From NCBI GenBank assembly GCA_012813795.1, contig GCA_012813795.1_4087.1: a stretch of DNA of 64,000 nt. One strand, 5' to 3'. The DNA comes from a phage. A program made the position numbers and the translations under genes. Below the pieces are notes generated by a model that did not search any database, had not been told where the DNA came from, and saw only the letters and a program-made list of their open reading frames with translations. The first letter of the stretch is position 1. Every line of letters starts with the position of its first letter. Shown here one piece after another: positions 25,603 to 63,997 of the stretch.

Positions 25603-26253
25603 TTAAGTTTTGGTCTTAGCTAATGCAATCTGGATTCGTGTAATGAACTCACGCTCAATTTCATCGGCATTTGTACCTTGGTATTGCGTCTTGAATAGTT
25701 CCATAGCTTTAAGTGCCATTTGTACTGAAATGTCAGCAATGCTCTCAGTACTGGAATTGTCAAATACACATTTGAGGCTTAGTTCACCGTCACTTACATC
25801 ATCTACTAAAATTGGCGTTTTGTTCTGTTCATCAATGTAACGCAACGCTTTGTACTCTGCTTTGGTTAGATTTTCATACCAACGCGGATGGTTGAACAAA
25901 TCATACATTGTAACTTTCGCTGATTCCATGAGAAGCAATAGCTCTTCATTTCTGCGAATATGTTTTTCTTCACCTTTGTGATTTTTGTAAGCATATGCAC
26001 AACGCATAATGGCTAAACGAACTTCACCTGCTTTGGTGATAGTATATGAATGTGTTGCATTATCATAATCACTTTCCCATTGCTGTCCAGCGTATTCATA
26101 CCAAAGATCATTAGTTTCCCATTTCAGGAAATCAAATTCCAATAAATTATCAATCAACTTAGCCATATGACCAACGTATTCTCGGCTAATAATATTGAAA
26201 GAACCGTTATGTTTAGCGTGATACAGAATCTTTTCTTGAGTTACATTTTTCAT
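25603..26253 (-). CDS. hypothetical protein
   Basis: 216-aa track ORF. Confidence 0.55.
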   Translation of the reverse strand: MKNVTQEKILYHAKHNGSFNIISREYVGHMAKLIDNLLEFDFLKWETNDLWYEYAGQQWESDYDNATHSYTITKAGEVRLAIMRCAYAYKNHKGEEKHIRRNEELLLLMESAKVTMYDLFNHPRWYENLTKAEYKALRYIDEQNKTPILVDDVSDGELSLKCVFDNSSTESIADISVQMALKAMELFKTQYQGTNADEIEREFITRIQIALAKTKT

Positions 26254-26582
26254 TACATGTAATCCTTGATATATTTTAGAAGTTTAGATTTCTCTTCAGT
26301 ACTTAATGATTTCTTGTTCATTAAATGTTTCATTTCTTGACGTTCAATTTCTTCGCGACGTTGTGATTCTAACTGCAAACGGATATTGTATTCTTCATCC
26401 GTTTCTTCTCGTGTCCAAATTACATTGTATCCATCGAAACCGCCGTAACCACCGTCTGGTGAAAGACTAATGTGTCCCTTGTACTCTGCACGGTACTTAT
26501 TAAGAGTGTCAATCAATGTATCAATACAACACTGTTCAATTTCAATATAGCCAATAACTACATCAACATCAACTTTGCTCAT
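26253..26582 (-). CDS. hypothetical protein
   Basis: Track ORF 26253..26744 trimmed to the internal ATG (MSKVDVDVV) downstream of the terminator hairpin. Confidence 0.45.
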   Translation of the reverse strand: MSKVDVDVVIGYIEIEQCCIDTLIDTLNKYRAEYKGHISLSPDGGYGGFDGYNVIWTREETDEEYNIRLQLESQRREEIERQEMKHLMNKKSLSTEEKSKLLKYIKDYM

Positions 26583-52290: not shown

Positions 52291-52569
52291 TTATAAAAAA
52301 GTTAAATCTTCAGTACTTAATTGTACAAAACATTTGTTAGTTTCATTGTCAACCAGAATTTCAACATACACCTTCACTTCATGAATTGTTACAATTCTAT
52401 GAATCACACCAACAGTAGTTCCATCTATATATGGTAGCTCAACCCAACGACCAACCAATTTATCACTTAAATGGTCTTTCATTTGTTGGTTGGTATCATT
52501 GATTATTGTATCGAGTGATTTTTTAAAAAAGTTAAATTCGGTTAATGAACTATCAATCATGTCATGCAT
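52291..52569 (-). CDS. small protein, K-[YL]-[IV]-G-[KR]-x-V family
   Basis: 92 aa; contains DKLVGRWVEL; member of the small-paralog family described in findings. Confidence 0.5.
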   Translation of the reverse strand: MHDMIDSSLTEFNFFKKSLDTIINDTNQQMKDHLSDKLVGRWVELPYIDGTTVGVIHRIVTIHEVKVYVEILVDNETNKCFVQLSTEDLTFL

Positions 52570-52574
52570 AATAA

Positions 52575-53318
52575 TTACCTCTTGAATCGACTAAATGAAT
52601 ATTCGTCTTTTTCTTTACGCAAATAACACATCTTACCACCTTGAGGGGTAGCAATAGTCAAATCACCAGTAAGAAACTGACTGTCAATCCAGATACGGTT
52701 ACCATAAATGAGGGGATCAAACACGGCAGTATGCCCACTAAGTACATAATCTACGTTGGTAATACGTGATGCATTAAAGACGTTGTTGGCTTTACAGAAA
52801 TCAAATGTCTTTCTGTCCCATAGGCATGACTCAATTGTATCACTGGACATTGATTTTGTCCCAGTAATGAACTTATTCCAGTCAGTGTGCTTAAGGTCTA
52901 CACTTGCATGTACGAGGCCAATCTTGAGTCCTCTGTGATTGATTTGGATAATCATAGGTAGCTGGTTCAAGTACTGACGGAAGAATTCCACTCCTGATAC
53001 ACCAACTTCTTCCAGGAACTTATCGCCCCCATTCTGTGTCCAGCAATGATACCAGTCACGATGAGTTGCAGAATCAACACACATCGATTCATGATTGCCC
53101 ATGATCATATATCGATTCTCAGCGAATAAAAACTCAAACAAAAGGTGAGCACTTTGCTCACCTCTGTCAATTAAATCGCCTAAACTGAATACATAATCTT
53201 CAGGAGTAATACCAAATTCTTTCTTGGTATGTTCCCATAGTTTTGCATTACCGTGAATGTCTCCTACTATATACAAATCTTTTTCATCAGGAACTGTTAC
53301 TTCTAAGAAATGTTTCAT
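52575..53318 (-). CDS. PPP-family Ser/Thr protein phosphatase (lambda-PPase/ApaH-like)
   Basis: 247 aa; motifs GDIHG, GDLIDRG, GNHE in canonical order; ATG verified. Confidence 0.8.
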   Translation of the reverse strand: MKHFLEVTVPDEKDLYIVGDIHGNAKLWEHTKKEFGITPEDYVFSLGDLIDRGEQSAHLLFEFLFAENRYMIMGNHESMCVDSATHRDWYHCWTQNGGDKFLEEVGVSGVEFFRQYLNQLPMIIQINHRGLKIGLVHASVDLKHTDWNKFITGTKSMSSDTIESCLWDRKTFDFCKANNVFNASRITNVDYVLSGHTAVFDPLIYGNRIWIDSQFLTGDLTIATPQGGKMCYLRKEKDEYSFSRFKR

Positions 53319-53569
53319 TGTTCTTTAATCCATATAATTCTATCATAGGTGACAACTTGAGTATTGGCAATTTGGTCATTGACATAGCAATCTACGTAAT
53401 ATCGCACATCACCATGATATGTTCCCATATCTCTTATGCATATTTTTTGCCAACCTCTGGAGTGTTTAAGAAGAATTTCTTGACCAATATATTTGTGCTT
53501 AGCACGTTGGACAAAATCATCATATAACGATTGTAACATCTTTAACTGTTCAATTTCAGTCTTTGTCAT
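53315..53569 (-). CDS. small protein, K-[YL]-[IV]-G-[KR]-x-V family
   Basis: 84 aa; contains HKYIGQEILL. Confidence 0.5.
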   Translation of the reverse strand: MTKTEIEQLKMLQSLYDDFVQRAKHKYIGQEILLKHSRGWQKICIRDMGTYHGDVRYYVDCYVNDQIANTQVVTYDRIIWIKEQ

Positions 53570-53792
53570 GTTTCTTCTTCTTGAATTTTGTTAGTGTATT
53601 GTAAAAATCTTTACAGATTGAAATGAAAAGATACACCAACGACACAGGCCACAGTACTGATAACATAGAGCAGGTACTAATATTAATCATTGTGGTATGG
53701 GTATCTTTAAAAGAACCCCAGTTGATGATAAGAAAAGTACTCAAAAATGTACTCAGTACTCCTACACCATACAAAGCAAAAAATAAAATCAT
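53556..53792 (-). CDS. small membrane protein
   Basis: 78 aa, two TM segments. Confidence 0.45.
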   Translation of the reverse strand: MILFFALYGVGVLSTFLSTFLIINWGSFKDTHTTMINISTCSMLSVLWPVSLVYLFISICKDFYNTLTKFKKKKHDKD

Positions 53793-54137
53793 TTATTCCT
53801 CTTCTATTAGTTCTAAACGATCTAAACGGTAAGTGAATCCGTACCATTCAGAACTTTTTGGATTTTCATATTCCACATCAACATAGATTGATGAATTCTT
53901 TACTCGCAACAAAGTAATAAACATAACTGTATTTTCGTTGATATGAGAAGCTTCATCATCACAATAAATCCAGTCAGAATCTACTTCATCCTCCTTAGCC
54001 TTATTGATGTGGTCAATATACTCTTGAGTGAATTTTACTTTTTTGCCTATTAATTTATTTTTTAAGGTACTAACGAATTCTGATTGAAGATCAAGGAGAG
54101 ATTCGAAGTACCTTAGTTCAGATGATAACGGAACCAT
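53793..54137 (-). CDS. small protein, K-[YL]-[IV]-G-[KR]-x-V family
   Basis: 114 aa; contains NKLIGKKVKF. Confidence 0.5.
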   Translation of the reverse strand: MVPLSSELRYFESLLDLQSEFVSTLKNKLIGKKVKFTQEYIDHINKAKEDEVDSDWIYCDDEASHINENTVMFITLLRVKNSSIYVDVEYENPKSSEWYGFTYRLDRLELIEEE

Positions 54138-54745
54138 TAATCACAGCTTCCTGAACTTGAGCTTGAACTATCACAAGAGCCACTATCATAAGAGGAAGAT
54201 GAGTCGCTATAGGATGAAGTACTGATAATTGCGGCAGTTGTTGCTGCTGTCAGTAGAACAGTGCTTGTACCATCATCAGTACTGGTAGTACTGGAAGATG
54301 CTTCCTTATCAGTTTTAGTGCTTTTGCGAGTTGTACTGGTTTTTTTGGTATTTTTAGTGCTAGTCTTGCGACCTTTTGTTTTCTTAGAAGTTTTTGCTTT
54401 TGTTTTAGTTGTTGGTGCTTTTGGTTGTGGTTCTTCTTTTACTGGAACTTCTTCCTGAACTGATTTAACTTCTTCAGCAGCACCATCAATGTAAACGTCA
54501 TCAACTGTTAAAGTTGGCGTATATCCTTCAAAAACTGGTACATCATGTACTGCTTTATCACGATTATCGTCAATGACTAGTGACATGTCACGGCGACCCA
54601 TAATAATGAGTAAACCTAGTTCTAGTACTGGCGTAAAAATAATACCAAATACTGTGTATACCAGTGCATTACGGTTGTAAGATTTTGCCAAAAACCAACC
54701 AATAACCAGACCAAGTACGTATAGTACGTATAGTGCATAAATCAT
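54137..54745 (-). CDS. membrane-anchored protein with K/T/S-rich low-complexity tail
   Basis: 202 aa; N-terminal TM segments, then a basic low-complexity stretch (TKTKAKTSKKTKGRKTSTKNTKK) and S/C-rich C-terminus. Confidence 0.5.
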   Translation of the reverse strand: MIYALYVLYVLGLVIGWFLAKSYNRNALVYTVFGIIFTPVLELGLLIIMGRRDMSLVIDDNRDKAVHDVPVFEGYTPTLTVDDVYIDGAAEEVKSVQEEVPVKEEPQPKAPTTKTKAKTSKKTKGRKTSTKNTKKTSTTRKSTKTDKEASSSTTSTDDGTSTVLLTAATTAAIISTSSYSDSSSSYDSGSCDSSSSSSGSCD

Positions 54746-55041
54746 AGTATGACTCCTTTAATTACAATTATTTTACCGATATCTTCGATATAATTAGAAA
54801 AGTGATAGTTGTCTTGGTATATCAACCACGCACCAAACCCATCTACTATTTCGATTATATTAATTTCTTCAATTGGATTATTTTTACATTCAGCAACGAA
54901 CGGACAAAAATAATCATTTAAAATTTGAAGATATATTTTACTTACCTCTAACCATTCAGTTCTATTATAGTATTTGTCAAAAATAAAAGTTTCCCACAGA
55001 AGTTTATATGTTTCTTCTGCTTCATATAATGTTTTAATCAT
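54742..55041 (-). CDS. hypothetical protein
   Basis: 99-aa track ORF. Confidence 0.45.
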   Translation of the reverse strand: MIKTLYEAEETYKLLWETFIFDKYYNRTEWLEVSKIYLQILNDYFCPFVAECKNNPIEEINIIEIVDGFGAWLIYQDNYHFSNYIEDIGKIIVIKGVIL

Positions 55042-55340
55042 ATACTAATAATTTCGTTAGTGGATACTACTCTTCCGTACATCAATGGGATTACGTACAC
55101 ATTTGGAATCGAAATCCCCACTGATTTAATTGTATCACATAGCTCATTATTTGTCCTGGCATTTTTGAACTTTATTTCTCTACCTTCAAATGCATCAATA
55201 ACAGATTGTGAATATGAATCCATTAACACCCTGAAGTTAATCATCATAGTTGGGTAGTCTAGTATCCCCTCAATTCGCATATCATGGCACGTTCTGAATA
55301 GCATAATGTATGTTTTATGACAAAGTAATAGTTCATTCAT
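55038..55340 (-). CDS. hypothetical protein
   Basis: 100-aa track ORF. Confidence 0.45.
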   Translation of the reverse strand: MNELLLCHKTYIMLFRTCHDMRIEGILDYPTMMINFRVLMDSYSQSVIDAFEGREIKFKNARTNNELCDTIKSVGISIPNVYVIPLMYGRVVSTNEIISI

Positions 55341-55654
55341 ATGAAAATCTCATCCAGATACAATGTAGTACTGGGTCTGTCTGTATTAACATCAGTACTG
55401 CAATCAATCATCAGACCGTAGTCAGTACCCCATATTTGCTTGATATAAATGTCATAATCACGACTGGTATTTGCTTCATATACTACATTATTATAAAAAA
55501 GATCAGTCAATTCGTAATAGAAATCTTTAACAAGTTTATTCACCTCTTTTCTGTACATATCCATCTCAACGTTATCAATGTACAATAACCATTTCAGACA
55601 ATAATTAAAATGATTCTCGTACATTATTAATTTATTATATTCTTCTTGTGTCAT
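55337..55654 (-). CDS. hypothetical small protein (paralog of 55651..55974)
   Basis: 105 aa; IWGTDYGLMIDC...YLDEIFI parallels HGVFGTSHGIFVDY...YIEEIEL in the neighbour. Confidence 0.5.
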   Translation of the reverse strand: MTQEEYNKLIMYENHFNYCLKWLLYIDNVEMDMYRKEVNKLVKDFYYELTDLFYNNVVYEANTSRDYDIYIKQIWGTDYGLMIDCSTDVNTDRPSTTLYLDEIFI

Positions 55655-55974
55655 AGTTCAATCTCTTCTATGTACATACTATTTTCTGTGTACGGATCAA
55701 ATGGGTGTATTTTATAATCAACAAAGATTCCATGTGATGTACCAAAAACACCATGAATATATACAATTTCATCTTCGCACTTAATAGTTCTGTACTTAAA
55801 TCTCTTTTCCAATGATTCATATATTTCACTAATTATACAGTTAATATAGTTCTTAAACTGACGGTTTGATTTAGTGCATTGTTCTTCAAGAAGTATATTA
55901 TATATAATCAGAAAGTGTCTGTTTATATAATTCAAATAATCTAATTCACTTTTTGTTATTAAAGTGTTGCTCAT
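55651..55974 (-). CDS. hypothetical small protein (paralog of 55337..55654)
   Basis: 107-aa track ORF. Confidence 0.5.
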   Translation of the reverse strand: MSNTLITKSELDYLNYINRHFLIIYNILLEEQCTKSNRQFKNYINCIISEIYESLEKRFKYRTIKCEDEIVYIHGVFGTSHGIFVDYKIHPFDPYTENSMYIEEIEL

Positions 55975-56275
55975 ATATAATCTCTATCTCGTTTGAATCG
56001 TAATATGCTTTATGGGTTCTTGTTTTATTTTGGTATTTTATTTTGGTTTTGATAAAATATATAACCTTTTTCCATTCATAATACACGTACTCAATTTTAC
56101 CATAGTCACCAGTACTAAGTAATACTTTTTTACCTTTGTACAGTTCTTGTAATTGTGTTTTATAATCCTCAAGAAATCTACTTTCAAAAATTTTTACATC
56201 ACTTTCCATCACAAGGTCGATAAGAATAGCAAGATGCCTATCCAATAATAGTAAGTTCTCTTGATCGTATTGCAT
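55946..56275 (-). CDS. small protein, K-[YL]-[IV]-G-[KR]-x-V family (start uncertain)
   Basis: Track ORF 55946..56362 contains LYKGKKVLL; start trimmed to an internal ATG to limit overlap; no clear RBS. Confidence 0.4.
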   Translation of the reverse strand: MQYDQENLLLLDRHLAILIDLVMESDVKIFESRFLEDYKTQLQELYKGKKVLLSTGDYGKIEYVYYEWKKVIYFIKTKIKYQNKTRTHKAYYDSNEIEIIYEQHFNNKK

Positions 56276-56552
56276 AATATCTTTGTCCATTATCAGATTT
56301 TGCCGTATACATGTATGCCCCATAAGAATATGATATGTTGGTAATTTCAACTTCTCTTCCAAGATATATAGCTTTTGTTCCTACGTATTTTTTAAGCAGT
56401 GGTGTAGTTAGTTCAAGGAGATAGGTTTCAAGGAAATCGGAAATATCATAAGATGGATAATAATCATCCATTTGGGTATGAAAGAAACGACGTGTATCTC
56501 TTATTAATTTCACGTGCCTGTCATACAATTCTAATTTCGTCATATGTTGCAT
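56238..56552 (-). CDS. small protein, K-[YL]-[IV]-G-[KR]-x-V family (start uncertain)
   Basis: Track ORF 56238..56615 begins with TTG; contains KKYVGTKAIYL; start set to an internal ATG. Confidence 0.4.
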   Translation of the reverse strand: MQHMTKLELYDRHVKLIRDTRRFFHTQMDDYYPSYDISDFLETYLLELTTPLLKKYVGTKAIYLGREVEITNISYSYGAYMYTAKSDNGQRYYAIRSRELTIIG

Positions 56553-56802
56553 CCCATAAAAAACCTGCTCGTTCGCACCTGTACAAAATATTACCATTCC
56601 ATGTCGCCACTTCAATAATTGTCCAAGTTAAATCAGTATCATCTAGAACATTGACACCAAAAACCGATTTAGACAATTCGTTCTCGTAATTATCCATCAG
56701 TACTGATAATGATGTTAGTAATCTTTCATCGGATTCTGAAAAATATAAACTACGTAAAATACGATAATGATAATAAAAAAACTTCAATGAATCATTATTC
56801 AT
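56521..56802 (-). CDS. hypothetical small protein
   Basis: 93-aa track ORF. Confidence 0.45.
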   Translation of the reverse strand: MNNDSLKFFYYHYRILRSLYFSESDERLLTSLSVLMDNYENELSKSVFGVNVLDDTDLTWTIIEVATWNGNILYRCERAGFLWDATYDEIRIV

Positions 56803-57104
56803 GAAAAAATAAACCTCGAATATATTCTTGAGCGAAATGTTATATCACTTGGGATATATTTGCAACAAAGGTATGGATATCCGTAAGTACTGGATTCGAT
56901 TTCGGTAATAATAACATCACTACCTCGATATTTGCACTGAACATTTGAGTATTTTTTATTCAAAAAGTCAAGATATTCATCATGGAAATAAATGAGTTGT
57001 TCTTCAAACTTGTATTGTTTTTCATTATACATTGCAAGAGATTCTTCTTTAAGAAGATATAATGTTTTCATTAATGCTTGGAATTCATTCGTATTCATAT
57101 CCAT
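56799..57104 (-). CDS. hypothetical small protein
   Basis: 101-aa track ORF. Confidence 0.45.
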   Translation of the reverse strand: MDMNTNEFQALMKTLYLLKEESLAMYNEKQYKFEEQLIYFHDEYLDFLNKKYSNVQCKYRGSDVIITEIESSTYGYPYLCCKYIPSDITFRSRIYSRFIFS

Positions 57105-57351
57105 CCACTGTAGTTATTGTTGCTCGCGTTGTGAATTGGTATCTATGCCCATACATATCAACGCCAGATACAACTATATTATTGTTAGTATCAAGATATA
57201 CTGAATCAATTTTAATAATGCGTTCCCAGTCACTTGTATCATAGACACATTTAACATATGTATCTTTATATTTTTCTGATAGTTGCTTTACTAAATTTTT
57301 CAGTACTTGAATATGTGAATTAACAAATTGGAAATCTATATTAATATTCAT
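57085..57351 (-). CDS. hypothetical small protein
   Basis: 88-aa track ORF. Confidence 0.45.
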   Translation of the reverse strand: MNINIDFQFVNSHIQVLKNLVKQLSEKYKDTYVKCVYDTSDWERIIKIDSVYLDTNNNIVVSGVDMYGHRYQFTTRATITTVDGYEYE

Positions 57352-57353
57352 GT

Positions 57354-57614
57354 TTATTCATCCGATATAGATAATTCAGAGATAATTTTTACCATATGTT
57401 CACCCAAGAAATCGTTAGATCCAGTTAGGAATATTTTAGCTTTTATTTTAATTTCATCACTAAGTGGAGAATAATAAATCTCTACAATTTGCCCACGTCT
57501 TCCAGTTGATAAACATGTAGCAATTTTGCCTATGTACTTGATTCGCAACTCTTCCATTAGGGAGTGTAAAACCAACTGGCATTGTTTGAAATGTACATCA
57601 TAACTATTATCCAT
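57354..57614 (-). CDS. small protein, K-[YL]-[IV]-G-[KR]-x-V family
   Basis: 86 aa; contains IKYIGKIATCL. Confidence 0.5.
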   Translation of the reverse strand: MDNSYDVHFKQCQLVLHSLMEELRIKYIGKIATCLSTGRRGQIVEIYYSPLSDEIKIKAKIFLTGSNDFLGEHMVKIISELSISDE

Positions 57615-57637
57615 TATATCACCTAAATTAAAAGAAA

Positions 57638-57657
57638 AGGGATCAGTACTGATCCCT
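57638..57657 (-). terminator. intrinsic terminator (minus strand) after pseT
   Basis: Perfect palindrome AGGGATCAGTACTGATCCCT (with CAGTACTG at its centre), followed on the minus strand by TTTTCTTTT. Confidence 0.5.
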
Positions 57658-57666
57658 TTGTAATAA

Positions 57667-58599
57667 TCAAAATAGTCCAGGTTCCACCTGAAATACTTTC
57701 AAGCCTAGTAGCTTACGCCACATGAATACAACTTGTGATCTATCATCAAATACTTTCTTAACATCGTAATGATTAACAACGTTATTCATATACAACTCGA
57801 ATTTGACAACATCATCAGGACGTTTATCATCGATAGCTCGCATTAACAATACATCGTAGGGAATGCCCCAATTCTTAAGCCACTGTTCAGTATCAGCACG
57901 ACACCCTTCAGTACGCCCACTCATGACGATTACCTTACGCTTATGGAAAACAGCCTCAGCAATGACAGACAGAATTACTTCTTCATCTGGTGTATCCTGA
58001 AGGACAGTACTTTCATCAAACGGGTTACGTCCCCACTTATGAGCAAGAGTACCGTCGATATCAACAATGATAGCAGCTTCACGTGCATTACCATAGTAAC
58101 CAATGTGCATCGCCTTACTATAATAGTACGTATTTGCCATAGTGTCAATGATTTCATCTTGTACTGAACGCTCACGCTGGAGGTTATATTTCTTACAAAG
58201 TTTTACGAACTCTTTAATCTTAAAGAATTCATGAACATCTGCACCACGGTCTTCATTAGGTACAAAATCATCATAGAAGTTCTTTTCTTTGTAATCATAA
58301 CCATTATCTTTAGCCCACATTTTCCATTGATCACGGAAATGTGGTTTAAGGTTCGTATCGGATACGATGATATTCCAACTATTCTCCGCTGCTGAATTTG
58401 CTGCACTGAACTGTAAATTAGTTACGTACTTCTCATTAGCATCGTTGAATTTGTAAGCATCATGTGACCCAGCCATAGATTCACGAATATCATCACGGTT
58501 GATGTTGATAGTCTTGGATTTGGCTTTTTTAATCTCTTGCACTGCCCATGTAGTTTTACCACACCCTGGCAATCCAACTGTTAGTGTAATAGTTGGCAT
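57667..58599 (-). CDS. pseT: polynucleotide 5'-kinase/3'-phosphatase
   Basis: 310 aa; N-terminal P-loop GLPGCGKTT and C-terminal HAD-type phosphatase motif IVDIDGTLA, the T4 Pnk architecture; ATG verified. Confidence 0.85.
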   Translation of the reverse strand: MPTITLTVGLPGCGKTTWAVQEIKKAKSKTININRDDIRESMAGSHDAYKFNDANEKYVTNLQFSAANSAAENSWNIIVSDTNLKPHFRDQWKMWAKDNGYDYKEKNFYDDFVPNEDRGADVHEFFKIKEFVKLCKKYNLQRERSVQDEIIDTMANTYYYSKAMHIGYYGNAREAAIIVDIDGTLAHKWGRNPFDESTVLQDTPDEEVILSVIAEAVFHKRKVIVMSGRTEGCRADTEQWLKNWGIPYDVLLMRAIDDKRPDDVVKFELYMNNVVNHYDVKKVFDDRSQVVFMWRKLLGLKVFQVEPGLF

Positions 58600-58911
58600 T
58601 TAATCCTCAATAAATTTCACATTCTTTAGATTGTACCACGAAAAACGTTCATGACGTGTGTTGTGTCCTATAGTTACTTCTACATAGCACTCGTCAGTAA
58701 TGTGATGAGTAACTACATGAAATTTGACATTAACATCACTAATGATAGTTTCGAACCATGTTTTAGTGTTGTAATCCCAGCATTCAACTTTCTTACCAAT
58801 GAGTGATTTCTTGTATTGTGTAATCATATCATGAACAATTTCAGAAATAGTATTAGTTAATTCAATTTCTGCATTCATTAAATTATGAAGTTCTTTTAAT
58901 GCTTTATTCAT
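58600..58911 (-). CDS. small protein, K-[YL]-[IV]-G-[KR]-x-V family
   Basis: 103 aa; contains KSLIGKKVECW. Confidence 0.5.
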   Translation of the reverse strand: MNKALKELHNLMNAEIELTNTISEIVHDMITQYKKSLIGKKVECWDYNTKTWFETIISDVNVKFHVVTHHITDECYVEVTIGHNTRHERFSWYNLKNVKFIED

Positions 58912-59183
58912 TAGATTACCTCAATAATATCATCAATTGAGATATCAATACAATTATCGACAATGATATTCAATGTAAAATCATCATCTACATATACATT
59001 AGTGATTTTACCATAAACATTCATCCCATCATAAGATGATTTATAACGTACTCTTTTGTTAATATATTTTGCACGTAGAGTATTACTCTCACGGTACAAT
59101 ATATCCGTCAAACATTCTGATAGTACTTTATAATATAACAAATCACTTGAATGATTGTTTTTCATTGTATTTCCCAACTCCAA
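58911..59183 (-). CDS. small protein, K-[YL]-[IV]-G-[KR]-x-V family
   Basis: 90 aa; contains AKYINKRVRYK. Confidence 0.5.
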   Translation of the reverse strand: MELGNTMKNNHSSDLLYYKVLSECLTDILYRESNTLRAKYINKRVRYKSSYDGMNVYGKITNVYVDDDFTLNIIVDNCIDISIDDIIEVI

Positions 59184-59379
59184 ATCGCTTGGAGATTTTT
59201 ACAAGTACAGCTTCATCACAACGAATACTAGCAGTGTTATTGGATGAACTGTACTTTAAGGGGGTCCACTGTAATTGAGATTCTTCAAGGAACTTGATAC
59301 ATCTGAAGTAATCTTTCAGAGAAAGAAACTTAACCACTGACATATCCTGAACAATACTATGCTGAACTTCAACTTTCAT
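59143..59379 (-). CDS. hypothetical small protein
   Basis: 78-aa track ORF. Confidence 0.45.
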   Translation of the reverse strand: MKVEVQHSIVQDMSVVKFLSLKDYFRCIKFLEESQLQWTPLKYSSSNNTASIRCDEAVLVKISKRFGVGKYNEKQSFK

Positions 59380-59388
59380 ATGAACTCC

Positions 59389-59646
59389 TTATAGTGGATC
59401 GAATTTATTTTCACGTTTCGATGTATAGCGAGTTACATCATGTATTCTCGGCTTAACATCCTTTGGTTTCCTTTTCTTCTTATATTCAGTACTACTACAC
59501 CCAAAAGTATTCTCGATTCGCTTCTTACTAATCTTCACACCTTTCATTGAGCGTTTGTGCTGTAAATCATCGATTTCTTGTTGTATTTTCCTGAACTCAG
59601 TAGGAGAAAGGGAACCATCATTTTTATACTTAGGTTTAGCCATCAC
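59389..59646 (-). CDS. small basic protein
   Basis: 85 aa, K/R-rich. Confidence 0.45.
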   Translation of the reverse strand: MMAKPKYKNDGSLSPTEFRKIQQEIDDLQHKRSMKGVKISKKRIENTFGCSSTEYKKKRKPKDVKPRIHDVTRYTSKRENKFDPL

Positions 59647-59672
59647 TTCTCCTTGTGCTGGGCTAGTTAGTA

Positions 59673-60818
59673 CTAAAAATCCTTTAGTACATCTTTGTAG
59701 TACTTTAGTAAAGTCTCTTTATAATCGACACTTTTGCCATTGTACAACGCAAAGGCCAAGCCTTGTCGGTTCAATACATTAGGTAAATCTTGCTGAACCT
59801 TTTGAGCGAATTCCTTTCGCTCTAAGTGCTTGTATGCATGGACGAAGCTTTCTACCTCATCTTGTAAAGCATTATAGCACGAAAATACCAATTGTTCCAT
59901 TCTTAATATCTTATCCATAGCATATGTATCAGTACTGAACAATTGTTTTAAGTCATCACTTGCACCAGTCAGTACAGCTTCATATAAATGGGAATCAATA
60001 AGAATGGAATCTTTTGTTAAATGCAAAGAGCAATACCAGTCAGTTTTGATTTTGCACATTGTACCATCTTTCATTATACACACAAAACCTTCAATGTCAA
60101 GCATAGAACGTACTTTATCGATTGACTCTTTAAATGTAGGCATAATCGGGAATGTATGATGAATGTCATTACCTGTCATATTAGTACTGTACTGTGAAAG
60201 GCATGGAAACTTATCACGTAGTGCTTTACCGCATAACAACTCACCACTAATACGATGACGAACGTTAAGAACAAATAACTGTTCCACCTGATATGGTAAC
60301 ACAATTCGATACTCTGGGCTTGTGTATTCCAGATTCACAGTATAGCCCAAACGGTCTGCTTCATCAATGTATTGATAGAGATTTTGGTTCTCGTTCAAAA
60401 GTCGAGTACTGTTAATAGCATGGTCAGAAGATAACGAAGTGTGTGATTTACAACGGATTTCACCATCGTTATCACGGAATGTGCTGATGATAGAACCATC
60501 TAGCTTAGGCATTACAACCGCAATATCATCACAGGTAGTATCAGTACTGAACATTGTGTACGGGTTTTCATATGCATTGAAGAACTTTTTCATTGTACGT
60601 GCTGCACAACGAATCATAATTCCGTTGGAATCGATTTCCCACATAGAACCACGAGTTTCTAGTGCATTTTTATTTGTGAAATCGGTATAAGATGCCAGAC
60701 GATAGGTGAATACACGGTATAAACCACCACCAGGGCTTGTATGATCTATATAGAAAAATGCATCATTAGATTCACATAGTTCCATTAAATCATTGTATAT
60801 TTCTCGCAAATTACTCAT
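59673..60818 (-). CDS. rnlA: RNA ligase 1 (T4 Rnl1-like)
   Basis: 381 aa; nucleotidyltransferase motif I KxDG in VMPKLDGSIIS about 100 aa from the N-terminus; size matches T4 Rnl1; ATG verified. Confidence 0.8.
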   Translation of the reverse strand: MSNLREIYNDLMELCESNDAFFYIDHTSPGGGLYRVFTYRLASYTDFTNKNALETRGSMWEIDSNGIMIRCAARTMKKFFNAYENPYTMFSTDTTCDDIAVVMPKLDGSIISTFRDNDGEIRCKSHTSLSSDHAINSTRLLNENQNLYQYIDEADRLGYTVNLEYTSPEYRIVLPYQVEQLFVLNVRHRISGELLCGKALRDKFPCLSQYSTNMTGNDIHHTFPIMPTFKESIDKVRSMLDIEGFVCIMKDGTMCKIKTDWYCSLHLTKDSILIDSHLYEAVLTGASDDLKQLFSTDTYAMDKILRMEQLVFSCYNALQDEVESFVHAYKHLERKEFAQKVQQDLPNVLNRQGLAFALYNGKSVDYKETLLKYYKDVLKDF

Positions 60819-61123
60819 CTAATTACCTCTATATCTACATCTGTGCCATAGTAGGAAACGTAACCATTATCTGACTTACATTGAATTGATAACTCTGATT
60901 CATAGTATGTTACTTTGTTCACTGTTAGAACTTTTTCTTCAATTTCTCCCGTTAAATAATCCATTTCACGAACACGAACGTTGGTTCCTTTTGGGAGTTC
61001 TTGTGCAATTTTATTAACAAGTTCAAAAGCAGCTTCTTCAAGTGTGTGCAACAATTGCAATCTATCTTGGATATTCATATTATTTCCACCAACTGGTATC
61101 TCGACCACCAGACAAAGATTCAT
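60815..61123 (-). CDS. hypothetical small protein
   Basis: 102-aa track ORF. Confidence 0.45.
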   Translation of the reverse strand: MNLCLVVEIPVGGNNMNIQDRLQLLHTLEEAAFELVNKIAQELPKGTNVRVREMDYLTGEIEEKVLTVNKVTYYESELSIQCKSDNGYVSYYGTDVDIEVIR

Positions 61124-61769
61124 TGTACTGATGCCTGAAATTAGTATTTGGATTATTTGTCATTGTACTAATAAAATCAAATTTAGTGTTCTCTTGGATA
61201 TATTCAATAACACTATCTTTAAACTTGATAGTACTGAAATCTAAATCCAAATGTTCATACGATACTGGATGACAAAACTCATGATTACACAATGATCTCA
61301 TCGTATCTTTAATGTATTGTACGGTGTTAATCATTGCTTCATAGTCTGGCATTGCACGCATCATCATAAGCTGGAAGTGTTCTTCCTCTGTCATTGATTC
61401 ATCCAAATCAATAACAACTTCTTCATTCTTAGAGTCATATACTTTAATCTTACTATTCGTAGGGTCAAGCATAGCCCAATCAGGGTACAGGCATGTTTTC
61501 CAGAAAGGATTATTACACTGAAACATACTGACCAGTACTTGATTTTTATCGAAGATTGCAAAACCAAGATCATTACTGGGCTGTACTTCACACACATATA
61601 TATCATATGCAGAGTCTTCAGTGCAGAATGAACCAACTACATTTGATATATGAGTGTATGGAGTTTCTCTTGATTTTAATTCAAAGGCTCTCTCCATGCG
61701 GTTAATCTGTGGTTGTAAAGTAATTACACCCCTTAGTACATATAAAATTCTATCTAAATCTTTAATCAA
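61080..61769 (-). CDS. hypothetical protein
   Basis: 229-aa track ORF. Confidence 0.5.
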   Translation of the reverse strand: MIKDLDRILYVLRGVITLQPQINRMERAFELKSRETPYTHISNVVGSFCTEDSAYDIYVCEVQPSNDLGFAIFDKNQVLVSMFQCNNPFWKTCLYPDWAMLDPTNSKIKVYDSKNEEVVIDLDESMTEEEHFQLMMMRAMPDYEAMINTVQYIKDTMRSLCNHEFCHPVSYEHLDLDFSTIKFKDSVIEYIQENTKFDFISTMTNNPNTNFRHQYNESLSGGRDTSWWK

Positions 61770-62344
61770 AATTCTATCCCCGTGTCGGTTAATTTTGCCC
61801 CGTCCATGTACCTGACAGTTATTTCAATACGACTCTCGGTACTCAATTTCTGAAGTTCACTGTAGTACAATTTAAATTCTTCAAAGAACTCAAACGGTGG
61901 AATATCGAATAGAGTACTCATCTGGAAGTGCTCAGGTAAGCCAAAATCTAATATATTAATCTTAGGAATAAGACCATCTGATGCTGCACCTTCAGGTGTA
62001 CTGCTATCTGCTATATAAAACATAGAATCACCATGACGCTGGATAACGAATATACAATCATCTTCAGTTACATAAATTATATTTCCTAGGTATGGATCAT
62101 TATCACACCACTCATCATGGACGAGTTCTTCAACTTGAAGTAAATCTTTTATAATTCCCTGCCCACTATCATCAACTCGAATATGTAAACTAGAATCATC
62201 TTTACTCAACCAGCGGTATCTGGCATCTGATTCTGATTCCATGAATGGATATTTGGAAAAATCCATATCAGTACCGTTATAATACCAATTGTACCACTCA
62301 TTACGCATAGTAATCAGCTTAGTACTTAATTCTACAATATTCAT
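61766..62344 (-). CDS. hypothetical protein
   Basis: 192-aa track ORF, acidic. Confidence 0.5.
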   Translation of the reverse strand: MNIVELSTKLITMRNEWYNWYYNGTDMDFSKYPFMESESDARYRWLSKDDSSLHIRVDDSGQGIIKDLLQVEELVHDEWCDNDPYLGNIIYVTEDDCIFVIQRHGDSMFYIADSSTPEGAASDGLIPKINILDFGLPEHFQMSTLFDIPPFEFFEEFKLYYSELQKLSTESRIEITVRYMDGAKLTDTGIEF

Positions 62345-62640
62345 TTTAGTTTTAACCTTTTAGCAACATATTCTCTTAATTTTCCATCAGGAAGTTCTAC
62401 TACAAAATATGGATGATATGTTAGTCTCAGTGTAACCCTTTTTATTACACCTCGGTCATATGATATGGGAATTCCATAGGGATCATCAATTTCAACTTCC
62501 TTGCCATATAACATTGCATTGCAGGTATAGGTGTATTGCGTGAGTATACCGTGCATAGCACTGACGGAACCACCACTGCTCCATCTGGCAGCATCTGCGA
62601 GCATTGTTATCGTACTACTAACTAATTGTATTTTGTCCAT
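62341..62640 (-). CDS. hypothetical small protein
   Basis: 99 aa; contains MLYGKEVEI, possibly a distant member of the small-protein family. Confidence 0.45.
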   Translation of the reverse strand: MDKIQLVSSTITMLADAARWSSGGSVSAMHGILTQYTYTCNAMLYGKEVEIDDPYGIPISYDRGVIKRVTLRLTYHPYFVVELPDGKLREYVAKRLKLK

Positions 62641-62683
62641 AATGTACCTACAAAAAAGACCAGCAATCCATGCTGGCCTGTAC

Positions 62684-62962
62684 TTATTTTAATTCTTTAT
62701 ACGTGTATATACCAACAGTATCATTTGAGAAAATAATATAAAAATACACACCATGTGTATCAAAATCAATTTCATCAATGATACCTGATTTATTCATTGA
62801 TTTATGTGTAACTTCTTTATTAGTATAAAGTGGAATAAACTCAGAAGAAAAATCATCTATCAAAGCCCTTATATCGTCTATGTATGGTTTATTTTTAATA
62901 TACATATCACCATAAAGTTCTAAAAGATATTCATATATCCACACATCTCTTTGTAAATTCAT
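62684..62962 (-). CDS. hypothetical small protein
   Basis: 92 aa; contains LYTNKEVTHK. Confidence 0.45.
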   Translation of the reverse strand: MNLQRDVWIYEYLLELYGDMYIKNKPYIDDIRALIDDFSSEFIPLYTNKEVTHKSMNKSGIIDEIDFDTHGVYFYIIFSNDTVGIYTYKELK

Positions 62963-62970
62963 AACTTACC

Positions 62971-63699
62971 TTAGAAGTAAATCATACCAAGTAATTCAGA
63001 ATCATCAGGTCTGTTATAATCTTGCTTCTTAACTTTGAAGTAGAAAGACTCATGTTCTTCTAAATTATATCTCTTTTTAAGGCAACGTGTATAAGTTTGA
63101 CAGTTAGGTGTGACCCATTCATAAATGTGGACACCATTCTCATCATAACCATTTACACTACAACGATTGCCTTCGTGCTTTTTGTAGTTTTTACTCTTTT
63201 CAGTAAATTCACGAGCACATGTGGTATGTGGTTTTTTATAATCAAAAGGTACTTCAGTTATACGGAAATAATAGAAAAATTCGTCTTCATCATATCCCAA
63301 GAGCACTGTGTTAGTTTCACGTACATTGTAATGATTCTTACTTTTTGCTTCATTTTCGTATATATCTTTCAGTACTTCATCAAATACTACATCACTTGCA
63401 GCATTCGGGTTTGACACACCTGATACACGGCGTTCAATAATAAAATCGGTAAACTTACGTTCTTCTTCAATATCACCGTTCATATACAGACTAACAAACT
63501 TATCCTTGTATGTTTTGACTGAATATTGTTTACCTTGCACTTCACTGTATACATCAGCTAGTAAATTCTCTTGTCCGCATTGGACACCACTTACTGAATA
63601 TGCAGTTGCATGTTCTGCCATTACGGATGTTAGCATTTGGAAATTTGCAATGTTTAATTGGTTTGCTAACTCGCTGGCAAATCTGATACGGTCAATCAC
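62971..63699 (-). CDS. hypothetical protein
   Basis: 242-aa track ORF. Confidence 0.5.
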   Translation of the reverse strand: MIDRIRFASELANQLNIANFQMLTSVMAEHATAYSVSGVQCGQENLLADVYSEVQGKQYSVKTYKDKFVSLYMNGDIEEERKFTDFIIERRVSGVSNPNAASDVVFDEVLKDIYENEAKSKNHYNVRETNTVLLGYDEDEFFYYFRITEVPFDYKKPHTTCAREFTEKSKNYKKHEGNRCSVNGYDENGVHIYEWVTPNCQTYTRCLKKRYNLEEHESFYFKVKKQDYNRPDDSELLGMIYF

Positions 63700-63757
63700 T
63701 CTACACGCTCCTTGTGTTAGATATTATTCCATACCAACAATTATATCACTACTTATA

Positions 63758-63997
63758 CTACTGTCCCGCTTTATAACAATAAAGATTCTCTAATTTGAAG
63801 TCCGCAAGGTCACATTCAGAACGTACTCGGTTCTTGTTCCAGTACAAAATACGAATCCTTTCATAATCACGATAAACACTAATAATGCTTTTGTGCTTGG
63901 ATTTATAGTATTCCTGCACAGTCACAAGATACACGGTCCTCAATAAAGACTTAATGGGATAGGGCATATTCTGTGCTGTAGTAATACTATAAATCAT
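63758..63997 (-). CDS. hypothetical small protein
   Basis: 79-aa track ORF starting 3 nt from the window end. Confidence 0.4.
   Translation of the reverse strand: MIYSITTAQNMPYPIKSLLRTVYLVTVQEYYKSKHKSIISVYRDYERIRILYWNKNRVRSECDLADFKLENLYCYKAGQ

What the first reader, a model, noticed from the sequence alone, without database searches (positions are those of the whole stretch)
52291..62962. Expanded family of about 10 small paralogs with a K-[YL]-[IV]-G-[KR]-x-V core
Many 85-115-aa proteins in this 10-kb stretch share the same layout: an N-terminal helix of about 25 aa, the motif (KYIGQEIL, KLIGKKVKF, SLIGKKVECW, KYIGKIATCL, KYINKRVRYK, KLVGRWVEL, LYKGKKVLL, KKYVGTKAIYL), then a beta-rich C-terminal half. 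They are interleaved with pnk, rnlA and the protein phosphatase. Diversified multi-copy small-protein families in phage hyperplastic regions are candidates for host-factor inhibitors or anti-defence proteins.
Basis: seen in the sequence. Interest (0 to 1): 0.55.

Follow-up and report, generated by a model that had tools for sequence, protein, structure and literature searches.

The report
Expanded small SH3-barrel protein family
A giant E. coli phage carries at least 16 (about 25 genome-wide) fast-evolving copies of one small, previously unrecognised protein built from a helix plus a tiny SH3/Tudor-like barrel; the family is real, but what the proteins bind is still unknown.

Summary
The window is an Asteriusvirus jumbo coliphage, 97.8% identical in DNA to phage A4. 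Between 52291 and 62962, 18 small minus-strand genes share the described layout. Leave-one-subfamily-out HMM and profile-profile tests support 16 clearly and one marginally (55038). One (54742) is not supported.

Seven more copies lie just past the window end in A4. Relatives carry 16 (121Q), 13 (SD-15, Turkey5) and 8 (RaK2); GAP32 has none.

AlphaFold models of two members (pLDDT 87) show one N-terminal helix or a helical hairpin, followed by a five-stranded SH3/Tudor/KOW-like barrel. Only core hydrophobic residues and two glycines are conserved, so these proteins are not enzymes.

Positional orthologues in 121Q are 32-44% identical or absent, while most flanking enzyme genes are 75-96% identical. 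dN/dS is 0.26-0.38 against 0.11-0.17 for neighbouring genes.

No Pfam, NCBIfam, PDB-sequence or literature record describes the family, and PHROGs splits it into more than 12 families of unknown function.

The most likely role is a set of diversified stoichiometric binders of host proteins. That role is inferred, not shown.

The parts
52291..52569 (-). Family member, 92 aa, motif KLVGRWV (short type: one N-terminal helix plus barrel)
   Evidence: Leave-one-out HMM 14.5 bits with 0/200 shuffles reaching it. In the leave-subfamily-out HMM, the best member of its subfamily scores 23.4 bits. hhalign P=1.3e-6. Hits phrog_38615.
53315..53569 (-). Family member, 84 aa, motif KYIGQEI; this is the member modelled with AlphaFold
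53793..54137 (-). Family member, 114 aa, motif KLIGKKV, with a long acidic insert after strand 1
   Evidence: hhalign P=6.4e-6. Leave-one-out HMM 16.7 bits. Weak cross-hit to phrog_31355, the PHROG family of the 58600 member.
54742..55041 (-). Look-alike small ORF, 99 aa; membership NOT supported
   Evidence: Leave-one-out HMM 1.1 bits. Leave-subfamily-out HMM -0.4 to 2.6 bits. hhalign P=0.096, which is within the range of the negative controls. It lacks the K-Y-I-G-K-x-V strand-1 motif.
55038..55340 (-). Marginal member, 100 aa (FEGREIKF)
   Evidence: hhalign P=0.0056, better than all 36 controls but weak. Leave-subfamily-out HMM only 5-8.6 bits. No counterpart in 121Q, SD-15 or Turkey5.
55337..55654 (-). 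Family member, 105 aa (long type); adjacent paralogue of the 55651 member
   Evidence: hhalign P=5.5e-4. It shares phrog_34190 with 55651-55974. BLASTP against 55651 gives E=0.003 over 94 aa.
55651..55974 (-). Family member, 107 aa (long type)
   Evidence: hhalign P=6.2e-4. Leave-subfamily-out HMM 13-15 bits. Hits phrog_34190. Shows the highest dN/dS against A4 in the array, with 12 non-synonymous and 3 synonymous differences.
55946..56275 (-). Family member, 109 aa (or 114 aa if it starts at the ATG at 56290), motif LYKGKKV
   Evidence: Leave-one-out HMM 24.6 bits with 0/200 shuffles reaching it. hhalign P=5.1e-4. Orthologues P0009, P0010 and P0012 are 86-95% identical.
56238..56552 (-). Family member, 104 aa, motif KYVGTKA; it overlaps both neighbouring genes by about 30-38 nt and is not annotated in phage A4
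   Evidence: hhalign P=8.7e-4. Leave-one-out HMM 12.3 bits. The ORF is intact in A4 at 92% aa identity with an in-frame 2-codon deletion. It is called as a protein elsewhere (P0025).
56521..56802 (-). Family member, 93 aa (long type)
   Evidence: hhalign P=1.6e-5. Leave-subfamily-out HMM 24-26 bits.
56799..57104 (-). Family member, 101 aa (long type)
   Evidence: hhalign P=7.3e-5. In the leave-subfamily-out HMM, the A4 orthologue scores 22.9-24.8 bits and the weaker member of the pair 20.7.
57085..57351 (-). Family member, 88 aa (short type)
   Evidence: hhalign P=1.4e-5. Leave-one-out HMM 18.7 bits. Hits three different PHROG families: phrog_33398, phrog_11429 and phrog_22385.
57354..57614 (-). 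Family member, 86 aa, motif KYIGKIA; weaker statistical support
   Evidence: hhalign P=2.0e-3. Leave-subfamily-out HMM 14.6-17.9 bits. Single-sequence leave-one-out HMM only 2.1 bits.
58600..58911 (-). Family member, 103 aa, motif SLIGKKV, immediately downstream of pnk
   Evidence: Leave-one-out HMM 21.2 bits. hhalign P=3.1e-5. Hits phrog_31355. 38-39% identical to its positional orthologues in 121Q and Turkey5.
58911..59165 (-). Family member, 84 aa, motif KYINKRV (Asn replaces the Gly)
   Evidence: hhalign P=9.6e-6. Leave-one-out HMM 16.2 bits.
60815..61078 (-). Divergent member, 87 aa (LPKGTNVRV), immediately downstream of rnlA; unusually well conserved
   Evidence: hhalign P=1.8e-3. Leave-subfamily-out HMM 12-15 bits. 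80% identical to its 121Q counterpart, unlike the other members.
62341..62640 (-). Family member, 99 aa (LYGKEVEI); the only basic member (pI 9.0)
   Evidence: hhalign P=1.2e-4. Leave-subfamily-out HMM 14-16 bits, against reversed-sequence decoys of up to 14 bits, so borderline on that test. pI.
62684..62962 (-). Family member, 92 aa (long type); this is the second member modelled with AlphaFold
52575..53318 (-). Context, not a member: Ser/Thr protein phosphatase
   Evidence: Annotated as such in A4, 121Q and RaK2. 75% identical to the 121Q protein.
57667..58599 (-). Context, not a member: polynucleotide kinase/phosphatase (PseT-like)
   Evidence: tblastn gives about 90% identity to the 121Q protein and 33% to T4 pseT.
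59673..60818 (-). Context, not a member: RNA ligase 1 (RnlA)
   Evidence: Annotated in A4, 121Q and RaK2. 84% identical to the 121Q protein.

Best explanation
SHOWN. The interval holds a tandemly dispersed, lineage-specific multigene family. There are 16-17 supported copies in the interval and about 25 per genome. It is confined to a stretch of about 14 kb and shared by Asteriusvirus and the RaK2-like Alcyoneusvirus.

PREDICTED WITH GOOD CONFIDENCE. Each protein is a soluble module of about 85-115 aa. It has one amphipathic helix (short type) or a helical hairpin (long type), followed by a five-stranded SH3/Tudor/KOW-like beta-barrel. The K-[YL]-[IV]-G-[KR]-x-V motif is the end of the helix, a glycine turn and strand 1.

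SHOWN. Only core hydrophobic positions and two turn glycines are conserved, so the proteins are non-enzymatic scaffolds with free surfaces. The genes are under purifying selection, but it is 2-3 fold weaker than on neighbouring genes. Copies are gained, lost and replaced between close relatives.

INFERRED. Each paralogue acts by stoichiometric binding to a different partner. The partners are most likely host proteins, either housekeeping or defence factors, that the phage blocks or re-routes during infection. The diversification would then reflect host-phage conflict.
For: The family is real:
- Leave-one-out and leave-subfamily-out HMMs separate members from other proteins.
- hhalign against 36 control proteins does the same.
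- An iterative search converges on 92 proteins in 33 subfamilies, with no reversed-sequence decoy below E=1e-3.
- An HMM built from window sequences alone finds RaK2 ORFs at up to 29.8 bits.
- There are no members in 49 kb of adjacent A4 genome or in window positions 1-52 kb.

Non-enzymatic scaffold: the conserved columns are aliphatic or aromatic core positions plus two Gly. There are no Pfam, NCBIfam or PDB-sequence hits.

Protein binding rather than nucleic-acid binding: median pI is 5.2, and 14 of 18 window members have pI <= 6.1.

Fast turnover:
- Members are 32-44% identical to 121Q counterparts or absent, against 75-96% for the flanking enzymes.
- dN/dS is 0.26-0.38 against 0.11-0.17 in five genome pairs, with Fisher P=1.6e-5 for the window/A4 pair.
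- Copy number is 25, 16, 13, 13, 8 and 0 across six phages.

Real genes: pN/pS below 1 (binomial P=8e-5).
Against: No partner, phenotype or expression timing is known. The SH3-like barrel is a generic fold that is also used for RNA/DNA binding and for adaptor functions. dN/dS stays well below 1, so positive selection is not demonstrated, and relaxed constraint alone could explain the divergence. Sigma-70-like promoters are not enriched in the region, so early expression is unproven. Both structures are predictions made from overlapping family alignments. There is no similarity to any PADLOC model, and no anti-defence library was available for testing.
Confidence: 0.45

Rival explanations
1. 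The members are nucleic-acid- or RNA-polymerase-directed regulators. They would be small KOW/Tudor-like proteins that bind RNA, DNA or the transcription machinery and work with the neighbouring RNA-repair enzymes (pnk, rnlA) or in the transcriptional takeover of the host.
Confidence: 0.15
2. The members are adaptors or regulatory subunits for the phage's own enzymes. One example would be specificity factors for the phage-encoded ClpP/HslV-like proteases, in the manner of the SH3-like Lon enhancer HspQ.
Against: HspQ ranks no higher than dozens of other SH3-like barrels. There is no sequence similarity. Partners encoded by the phage itself would be expected to constrain the family rather than let it diverge 5-10 times faster than the flanking genes.
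Confidence: 0.1
3. The members are largely dispensable duplicates. A stable mini-fold would have been copied by tandem duplication as the jumbo genome expanded, and would now drift under weak constraint without distinct functions for each copy.
For: Presence/absence varies and copy number ranges from 0 to 25. Sequence divergence is very high. dN/dS is raised but below 1. Genome growth by tandem duplication has been proposed for 121Q (PMC5646251).
Against: All copies keep intact ORFs, and pN/pS is significantly below 1. The same interleaved arrangement is kept in a different genus, RaK2. The genes are tightly packed with overlapping start and stop codons, and there are no pseudogenes among the 18. 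An unannotated copy retains its reading frame through an in-frame indel.
Confidence: 0.2
4. This is not a true family. The shared layout would be convergence or a composition effect among AT-rich small ORFs.
For: Pairwise BLAST between members is near noise, with a best E of 0.003 in a tiny database. PHROGs places the members in separate families.
Against: Leave-out HMM and profile-profile tests separate members from 36 small control proteins of the same genome, from reversed sequences, and from 124 further ORFs of A4. The two AF2 models show the same fold in the same alignment register.
Confidence: 0.03

Closest known systems
Tudor / chromo / PWWP ('Royal family') SH3-like barrels, e.g. RBBP1 chromodomain 6bph and 53BP1 tandem Tudor 3lgf
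   Different: There is no sequence similarity (8-24% identity). No conserved aromatic cage is visible in the family profile. The N-terminal helix or helical hairpin is not part of those domains. The Royal-family proteins are eukaryotic readers of chromatin marks.
KOW domains of NusG/Spt5 and bacterial RNA-polymerase-binding Tudor-like domains (PcrA C-terminal domain 5dma; CarD/Mfd RID from general knowledge)
   Different: The Pfam KOW model does not hit any member at E<=1. The family is mostly acidic. The members are stand-alone proteins with a helical N-terminus, not domains of larger factors.
PHROG families of unknown function (phrog_38615, 37322, 29135, 31862, 34190, 33398, 31355, 28139, 32132, 32812)
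   Same: Individual members, or their orthologues in 121Q/PBECO4, are the founding sequences of these PHROG families.
   Different: PHROGs treats them as unrelated families. Only three weak cross-links exist in PHROGs. The unification into one family with one fold is new here.
[quoted passage not shown]
   Same: The phenomenon is the same: one small domain multiplied tens of times within one jumbo-phage lineage, with unknown function.
   Different: The fold is different. The copies here are so diverged (about 18-20% identity) that BLAST does not link them. They are interspersed among conserved enzyme genes rather than forming one uniform tandem block. The 121Q array reported in that paper consists of 'very similar' genes and is probably the ~190-aa family seen at L002 35-44 kb.
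HspQ (YccV), the SH3-like specificity enhancer of Lon protease (5ycq)
   Different: There is no sequence relationship. It is not ranked above generic barrels. It lacks the N-terminal helix architecture.

Membership tests
One paralogous family (the finding's own claim) | A profile built without a member, and without its orthologues, still recognises that member above unrelated small proteins of the same genome | tested here: met
   hhalign with the member's own subfamily left out gives P from 1.5e-9 to 5.6e-3 for 17 of 18 candidates, against P >= 0.045 for 36 controls. Leave-subfamily-out HMMs give 15-33 bits for 13-14 subfamilies, against 7-14 bits for the best reversed decoys. 54742-55041 fails both tests.
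SH3-like small beta-barrel fold | Five-stranded, strongly bent antiparallel barrel with a 3-10 turn between strands 4 and 5 | tested here: met
Tudor/chromo 'Royal family' methyl-lysine readers | A conserved aromatic cage of 3-4 aromatic residues on strands 1-4 | tested here: not met
   The conserved columns of the family profile are aliphatic core positions (I/V/L), two Gly and one Y/L/F at the end of the helix. No set of conserved surface aromatic residues exists.
KOW domain (Pfam PF00467) | A match to the KOW sequence profile | tested here: not met
   hmmscan of 20 small proteins of the interval (all 18 candidates plus two neighbours) against Pfam-A at E<=1 gives no KOW hit. There are only scattered sub-threshold hits, for example YajC at E=0.013.
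Sm/LSm/Hfq | N-terminal helix plus five-stranded barrel carrying the Sm1/Sm2 motifs and forming rings | tested here: not met
Known anti-defence protein families (Acr, Ocr, Tad, Gad, Dmd and others) | Sequence or structural match to a characterised anti-defence protein | not testable with these tools
Virion structural proteins | Detection in the virion proteome | not tested
   None of the 121Q or RaK2 counterparts carries the 'virion structural protein' label that those records give to proteins found by mass spectrometry. The proteome tables themselves were not examined.

The most novel reading that the evidence does not exclude
The array is a phage-encoded repertoire of about 25 diversified Tudor/SH3-like 'mini-binders'. 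Each would neutralise or re-route a different host protein, whether a defence-system component, an RNA-polymerase or nucleoid factor, or a protease substrate. On this reading the locus is a previously unrecognised anti-defence / host-takeover island built from one scaffold, with new specificities generated by duplication, divergence and cassette exchange between phages.
Probability: 0.25. Interest if true: 0.75.

Novelty: new member of a known kind. Interest (0 to 1): 0.42.

Why it matters
More than 80% of the genes in Asteriusvirus and RaK2-like jumbo phages have no assigned function. Collapsing about 25 'hypothetical proteins' per genome, and more than 12 PHROG families, into a single family with a confident predicted fold reduces that unknown fraction. 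It also provides a defined set of fast-evolving candidates for interaction and anti-defence screens.

If the copies prove to bind different host targets, the locus would be a natural library of small binders built on one scaffold. That would be useful for finding new host vulnerabilities or defence systems, and possibly as a scaffold for protein engineering.

If they prove dispensable, the locus would document how jumbo genomes grow by duplicating stable mini-domains.

Tried and rejected
- **Pairwise BLASTP among the candidates** gave only near-noise hits and cannot establish the family.
- **Pfam, NCBIfam, PADLOC and the PDB sequence profile search** gave nothing usable.
- **The search for related loci** failed in two ways.
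- **All three homologous-protein searches were spent.** The family profile returned only Asteriusvirus-type orthologues. Repeating it at E<=10 added one protein and was wasted. The single member 53315 returned one near-identical protein because of the word-index limit.
- **The exhaustive HMMER search of 1.84 billion representatives** found 19 hits. All were orthologues, apart from three long proteins (836-2,555 aa) matched only over short stretches of the helical part of the profile, taken to be false positives. No wider distribution is therefore detectable.
- **The afdb50 fold library** was unavailable.
- **The BFVD Foldseek search** gave only weak E-values of 0.003 or worse.
- **Promoter scans were uninformative.** Sigma-70-like promoters are not enriched, and the CBB/GAP32-type 'TGAAACG...TATAAT' motif is absent, so expression timing could not be inferred.
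- **The literature** on jumbo phages, RaK2, CBB, phAPEC6, fEgEco12 and 121Q does not describe this family. One paper search with min_terms=1 was wasted.


Full report
**Source and setting.** The window is a 64-kb piece of an Asteriusvirus jumbo coliphage. The finding's interval is 97.8% identical in DNA to Escherichia phage A4 over its whole length. Thirty-five other records, all 121Q/PBECO4-type Escherichia and Salmonella phages, match only its right-hand part (window 57628-62363) at about 86%. All genes from 44 to 64 kb lie on the minus strand and are tightly packed. The annotations of A4, 121Q and RaK2 show the same gene order: DNA ligase, a DnaJ-like zinc-finger protein, Ser/Thr phosphatase, small ORFs, pnk (pseT), small ORFs, rnlA, small ORFs.

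**Checking the observation.** Eighteen minus-strand ORFs of 84-114 aa between 52291 and 62962 have the described layout. A regular expression derived from them hits 8 times in 1,778 aa of these ORFs and once in 18,387 aa of the other window proteins.

Pairwise BLASTP is near noise. Pfam finds nothing. PHROGs puts 12 of the candidates into 10 different families of unknown function and finds none for the other six. It shows only three cross-links: 55337 and 55651 share phrog_34190, 53793 weakly hits the 58600 family, and 57085 hits three PHROG families. Paralogy therefore had to be tested with profiles.

**Profile tests.**
- *Leave-one-out HMMs built only from the other 17 window candidates.* These score 11 of 18 at 12-25 bits, with 0-1 of 200 composition-matched shuffles reaching that score. 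The other window gene products score at most 10.5 bits against the full model.
- *Iterative search.* I fetched the syntenic loci of A4, 121Q, Salmonella phage SD-15_S21, Turkey5, RaK2 and GAP32. An iterative HMM search over all 477 called proteins plus their reversed copies converged on 92 proteins in 33 BLAST subfamilies. No reversed decoy fell below E=1e-3, and there is a score gap between 23 and 15 bits.
- *Leave-one-subfamily-out HMMs.* These give 15-33 bits to 13-14 of the window's subfamilies, against 7-14 bits for the best reversed decoys. The best-scoring 'non-members' are further small ORFs in the same arrays of 121Q, SD-15 and RaK2, so they are probably additional members.
- *Profile-profile comparison (hhalign).* Each window candidate, together with its orthologues, was compared with the rest of the family. 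This gives P from 1.5e-9 to 5.6e-3 for 17 of 18. All 36 control small proteins of the window give P >= 0.045.
- *Cross-genus check.* An HMM made from window sequences alone finds RaK2 ORFs, from a different genus, at up to 29.8 bits.

54742-55041 fails every test and 55038-55340 is marginal. The remaining 16 are supported, with 57354, 60815 and 62341 the weakest of them.

**Extent of the family.** The family stops at 52291 on one side, with no member in window positions 1-52 kb. On the other side it continues past the window end. In A4, seven more copies (A4_411-418, motif 'H-[YF]-I-G-x-x-I') lie about 1-3 kb beyond the window end. A further 49 kb of A4, containing 124 ORFs, holds none.

Counts in the loci examined are about 25 in the window-type phage and A4, 16 in 121Q, 13 in SD-15, 13 in Turkey5, 8 in RaK2 (plus about 5 borderline) and 0 in GAP32.

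In 1.84 billion representative proteins the family profile finds 19 hits at E<=1e-3. All are small orthologues, apart from three long proteins (836-2,555 aa) matched only over short stretches of the helical part of the profile, which I take to be false positives. The word-indexed search of 5.8 billion proteins likewise returned only Asteriusvirus-type sequences. The family is therefore narrow in distribution and specific to this lineage.

**Structure.** AlphaFold2 with the family alignment gave confident models for a short-type and a long-type member.
- 53315-53569 (short type): pLDDT 87.4, with helix 3-27 and strands 31-36, 39-51, 54-63, 66-74 and 78-80.
- 62684-62962 (long type): pLDDT 87.3, pTM 0.75, with helices 3-23 and 25-46 followed by the same strands and a 3-10 turn before the last strand.

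Foldseek against viral models gives only weak matches. Uncharacterised proteins of 121Q, PBECO4 and RaK2 are among the top hits.

The other conserved columns are I/V in strand 2, a Gly in the 2-3 turn, alternating hydrophobic residues in strand 3, an acidic pair, and I/L in the last strand. No polar residue typical of a catalytic site is conserved.

The two models rest on overlapping alignments and are predictions, so they are not fully independent evidence.

**Evolutionary behaviour.** Against 121Q, whose pnk, DNA ligase, RnlA and phosphatase are 75-95% identical, the positional counterparts of family members are 32-44% identical. The exception is 60815 at 80%. Eight members of the 55038-57614 block have no counterpart at all.

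NG86 estimates give the family a dN/dS of 0.38 against 0.12 for neighbouring genes in the window/A4 pair (46 non-synonymous and 29 synonymous changes). In four further genome pairs the values are 0.26-0.38 against 0.11-0.17. The family/neighbour difference is significant (Fisher P=1.6e-5), and the family's ratio is significantly below neutrality (binomial P=8e-5).

These are therefore real, constrained genes that evolve 2-3 times faster at the protein level than their neighbours. Positive selection is not demonstrated.

Synonymous divergence of family genes against 121Q is at or near saturation (pS 0.60-0.84; 0.43 for 60815), while neighbours that are at least 80% identical show pS 0.20-0.59. 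Fourfold-degenerate sites differ at 0.53 against 0.41. This hints at cassette exchange or older alleles, but the numbers are small.

Recent duplication is visible in two places. The adjacent pair 55337/55651 is detectably related. One BLAST-linked subfamily has five adjacent copies in A4 and three in each of 121Q, SD-15 and Turkey5.

**Physical properties.** There are no transmembrane or signal features in the sequences. Median pI is 5.2, and 14 of 18 window members have pI <= 6.1; only 62341 is clearly basic. This argues against general nucleic-acid binding and favours protein-protein interaction.

**Interpretation.** Three things are shown or well predicted: a single family, an SH3/Tudor-like fold with a helical N-terminus, and a conserved core with a free surface together with rapid turnover.

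What follows is inferred. The proteins most probably act as stoichiometric binders, and the most economical partners for a fast-evolving, copy-number-variable family in a lytic jumbo phage are host proteins. I put this at about 0.45.

The rival explanations are:
- regulators that bind nucleic acids or RNA polymerase (0.15);
- adaptors for the phage's own enzymes or proteases (0.10);
- largely dispensable duplicates drifting under weak constraint (0.20);
- not a real family (0.03).

Expression timing could not be inferred. Sigma-70-like sites are not enriched. A single good extended -10 promoter-like site lies upstream of 62971-63699, at the head of the right-hand gene string.

**Comparison with what is known.** At the fold level the proteins belong to the SH3-like small-barrel class. 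They fail the sequence or motif criteria of KOW, Tudor aromatic-cage readers and Sm/Hfq. Whether they resemble known anti-defence proteins could not be tested.

The phenomenon of a small domain expanded tens of times in one jumbo-phage lineage is known. [quoted passage not shown] None of the papers examined describes this family, its fold or its hypervariability.

**Verdict.** I classify this as a new member of a known kind. It is a solid, moderately interesting finding, and its value depends on identifying what the proteins bind.

Noticed in passing
window 56238-56552 (-): A 104-aa family member overlaps both neighbouring genes by about 30-38 nt and is missing from the A4 annotation, which leaves a gap at L001 9983-10221. 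The ORF is intact in A4 at 92% aa identity with an in-frame 2-codon deletion, and it is called as a protein in other assemblies (P0025).
   Followed up: yes
window 57636-57659 (-) and 62657-62679 (-): Two of the array's few intergenic gaps each hold a GC-rich hairpin followed by a T-run, which looks like an intrinsic terminator. One lies just after pnk and one just after the 62684 member. They probably divide the array into transcription units or are RNA-processing sites.
   Followed up: partly
window 63740-63767 (-): An extended -10 promoter-like site (GGGACA, 16-nt spacer, TG-n-TATAAT) lies about 40 nt upstream of an AAGGAG ribosome-binding site and the GTG start of the 242-aa gene 62971-63699. 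It could drive host-polymerase transcription of the right-hand part of the array.
   Followed up: partly
window 57667-58599 (-): pnk differs from its A4 copy far more than its neighbours do (dS 0.21 against 0-0.09; 95% aa identity against 98-100%). This indicates a recombination mosaic inside an otherwise near-identical pair of phages.
   Followed up: partly
window 54137-54745 (-): A 202-aa protein sits in the middle of the array. It has a hydrophobic N-terminus that looks membrane-spanning and a long low-complexity tail rich in Lys, Thr and Ser, ending in Ser/Cys/Asp runs (…SSSSSSGSCD). It is only 33-41% identical to its relatives, and only over part of its length.
   Followed up: no
window 53556-53792 (-): A 78-aa hydrophobic protein, probably with two membrane helices, is embedded between family members. 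It is also fast-evolving (46% identical to the 121Q protein).
   Followed up: no
L002 (121Q) 35.7-44.7 kb; L008 (A4) about 25-40 kb: There is a second, separate array of about 15 or more adjacent genes of roughly 150-200 aa (121Q_392-409; A4_367-392). [quoted passage not shown] 2017. It is unrelated to the family studied here.
   Followed up: no
L003 (SD-15_S21) 25981-26454: A 157-aa ORF in the Salmonella phage occupies the place of two adjacent family members of 121Q and A4. It could be a fusion or a frameshift/annotation artefact of two paralogues.
   Followed up: no
window 58911-59183 / 59143-59379 (-): The mechanical ORF for the 58911 member starts at a TTG that overlaps the conserved upstream gene 59143-59379 by 41 nt. 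The ATG at 59165, which gives 84 aa and is the start annotated in A4, is the likely true start.
   Followed up: partly
proteins P0005, P0009: Some orthologues are deposited as 'hypothetical protein [Escherichia coli]', one of them on a contig of 358,987 bp. Whole Asteriusvirus genomes are therefore present in assemblies labelled as E. coli.
   Followed up: no
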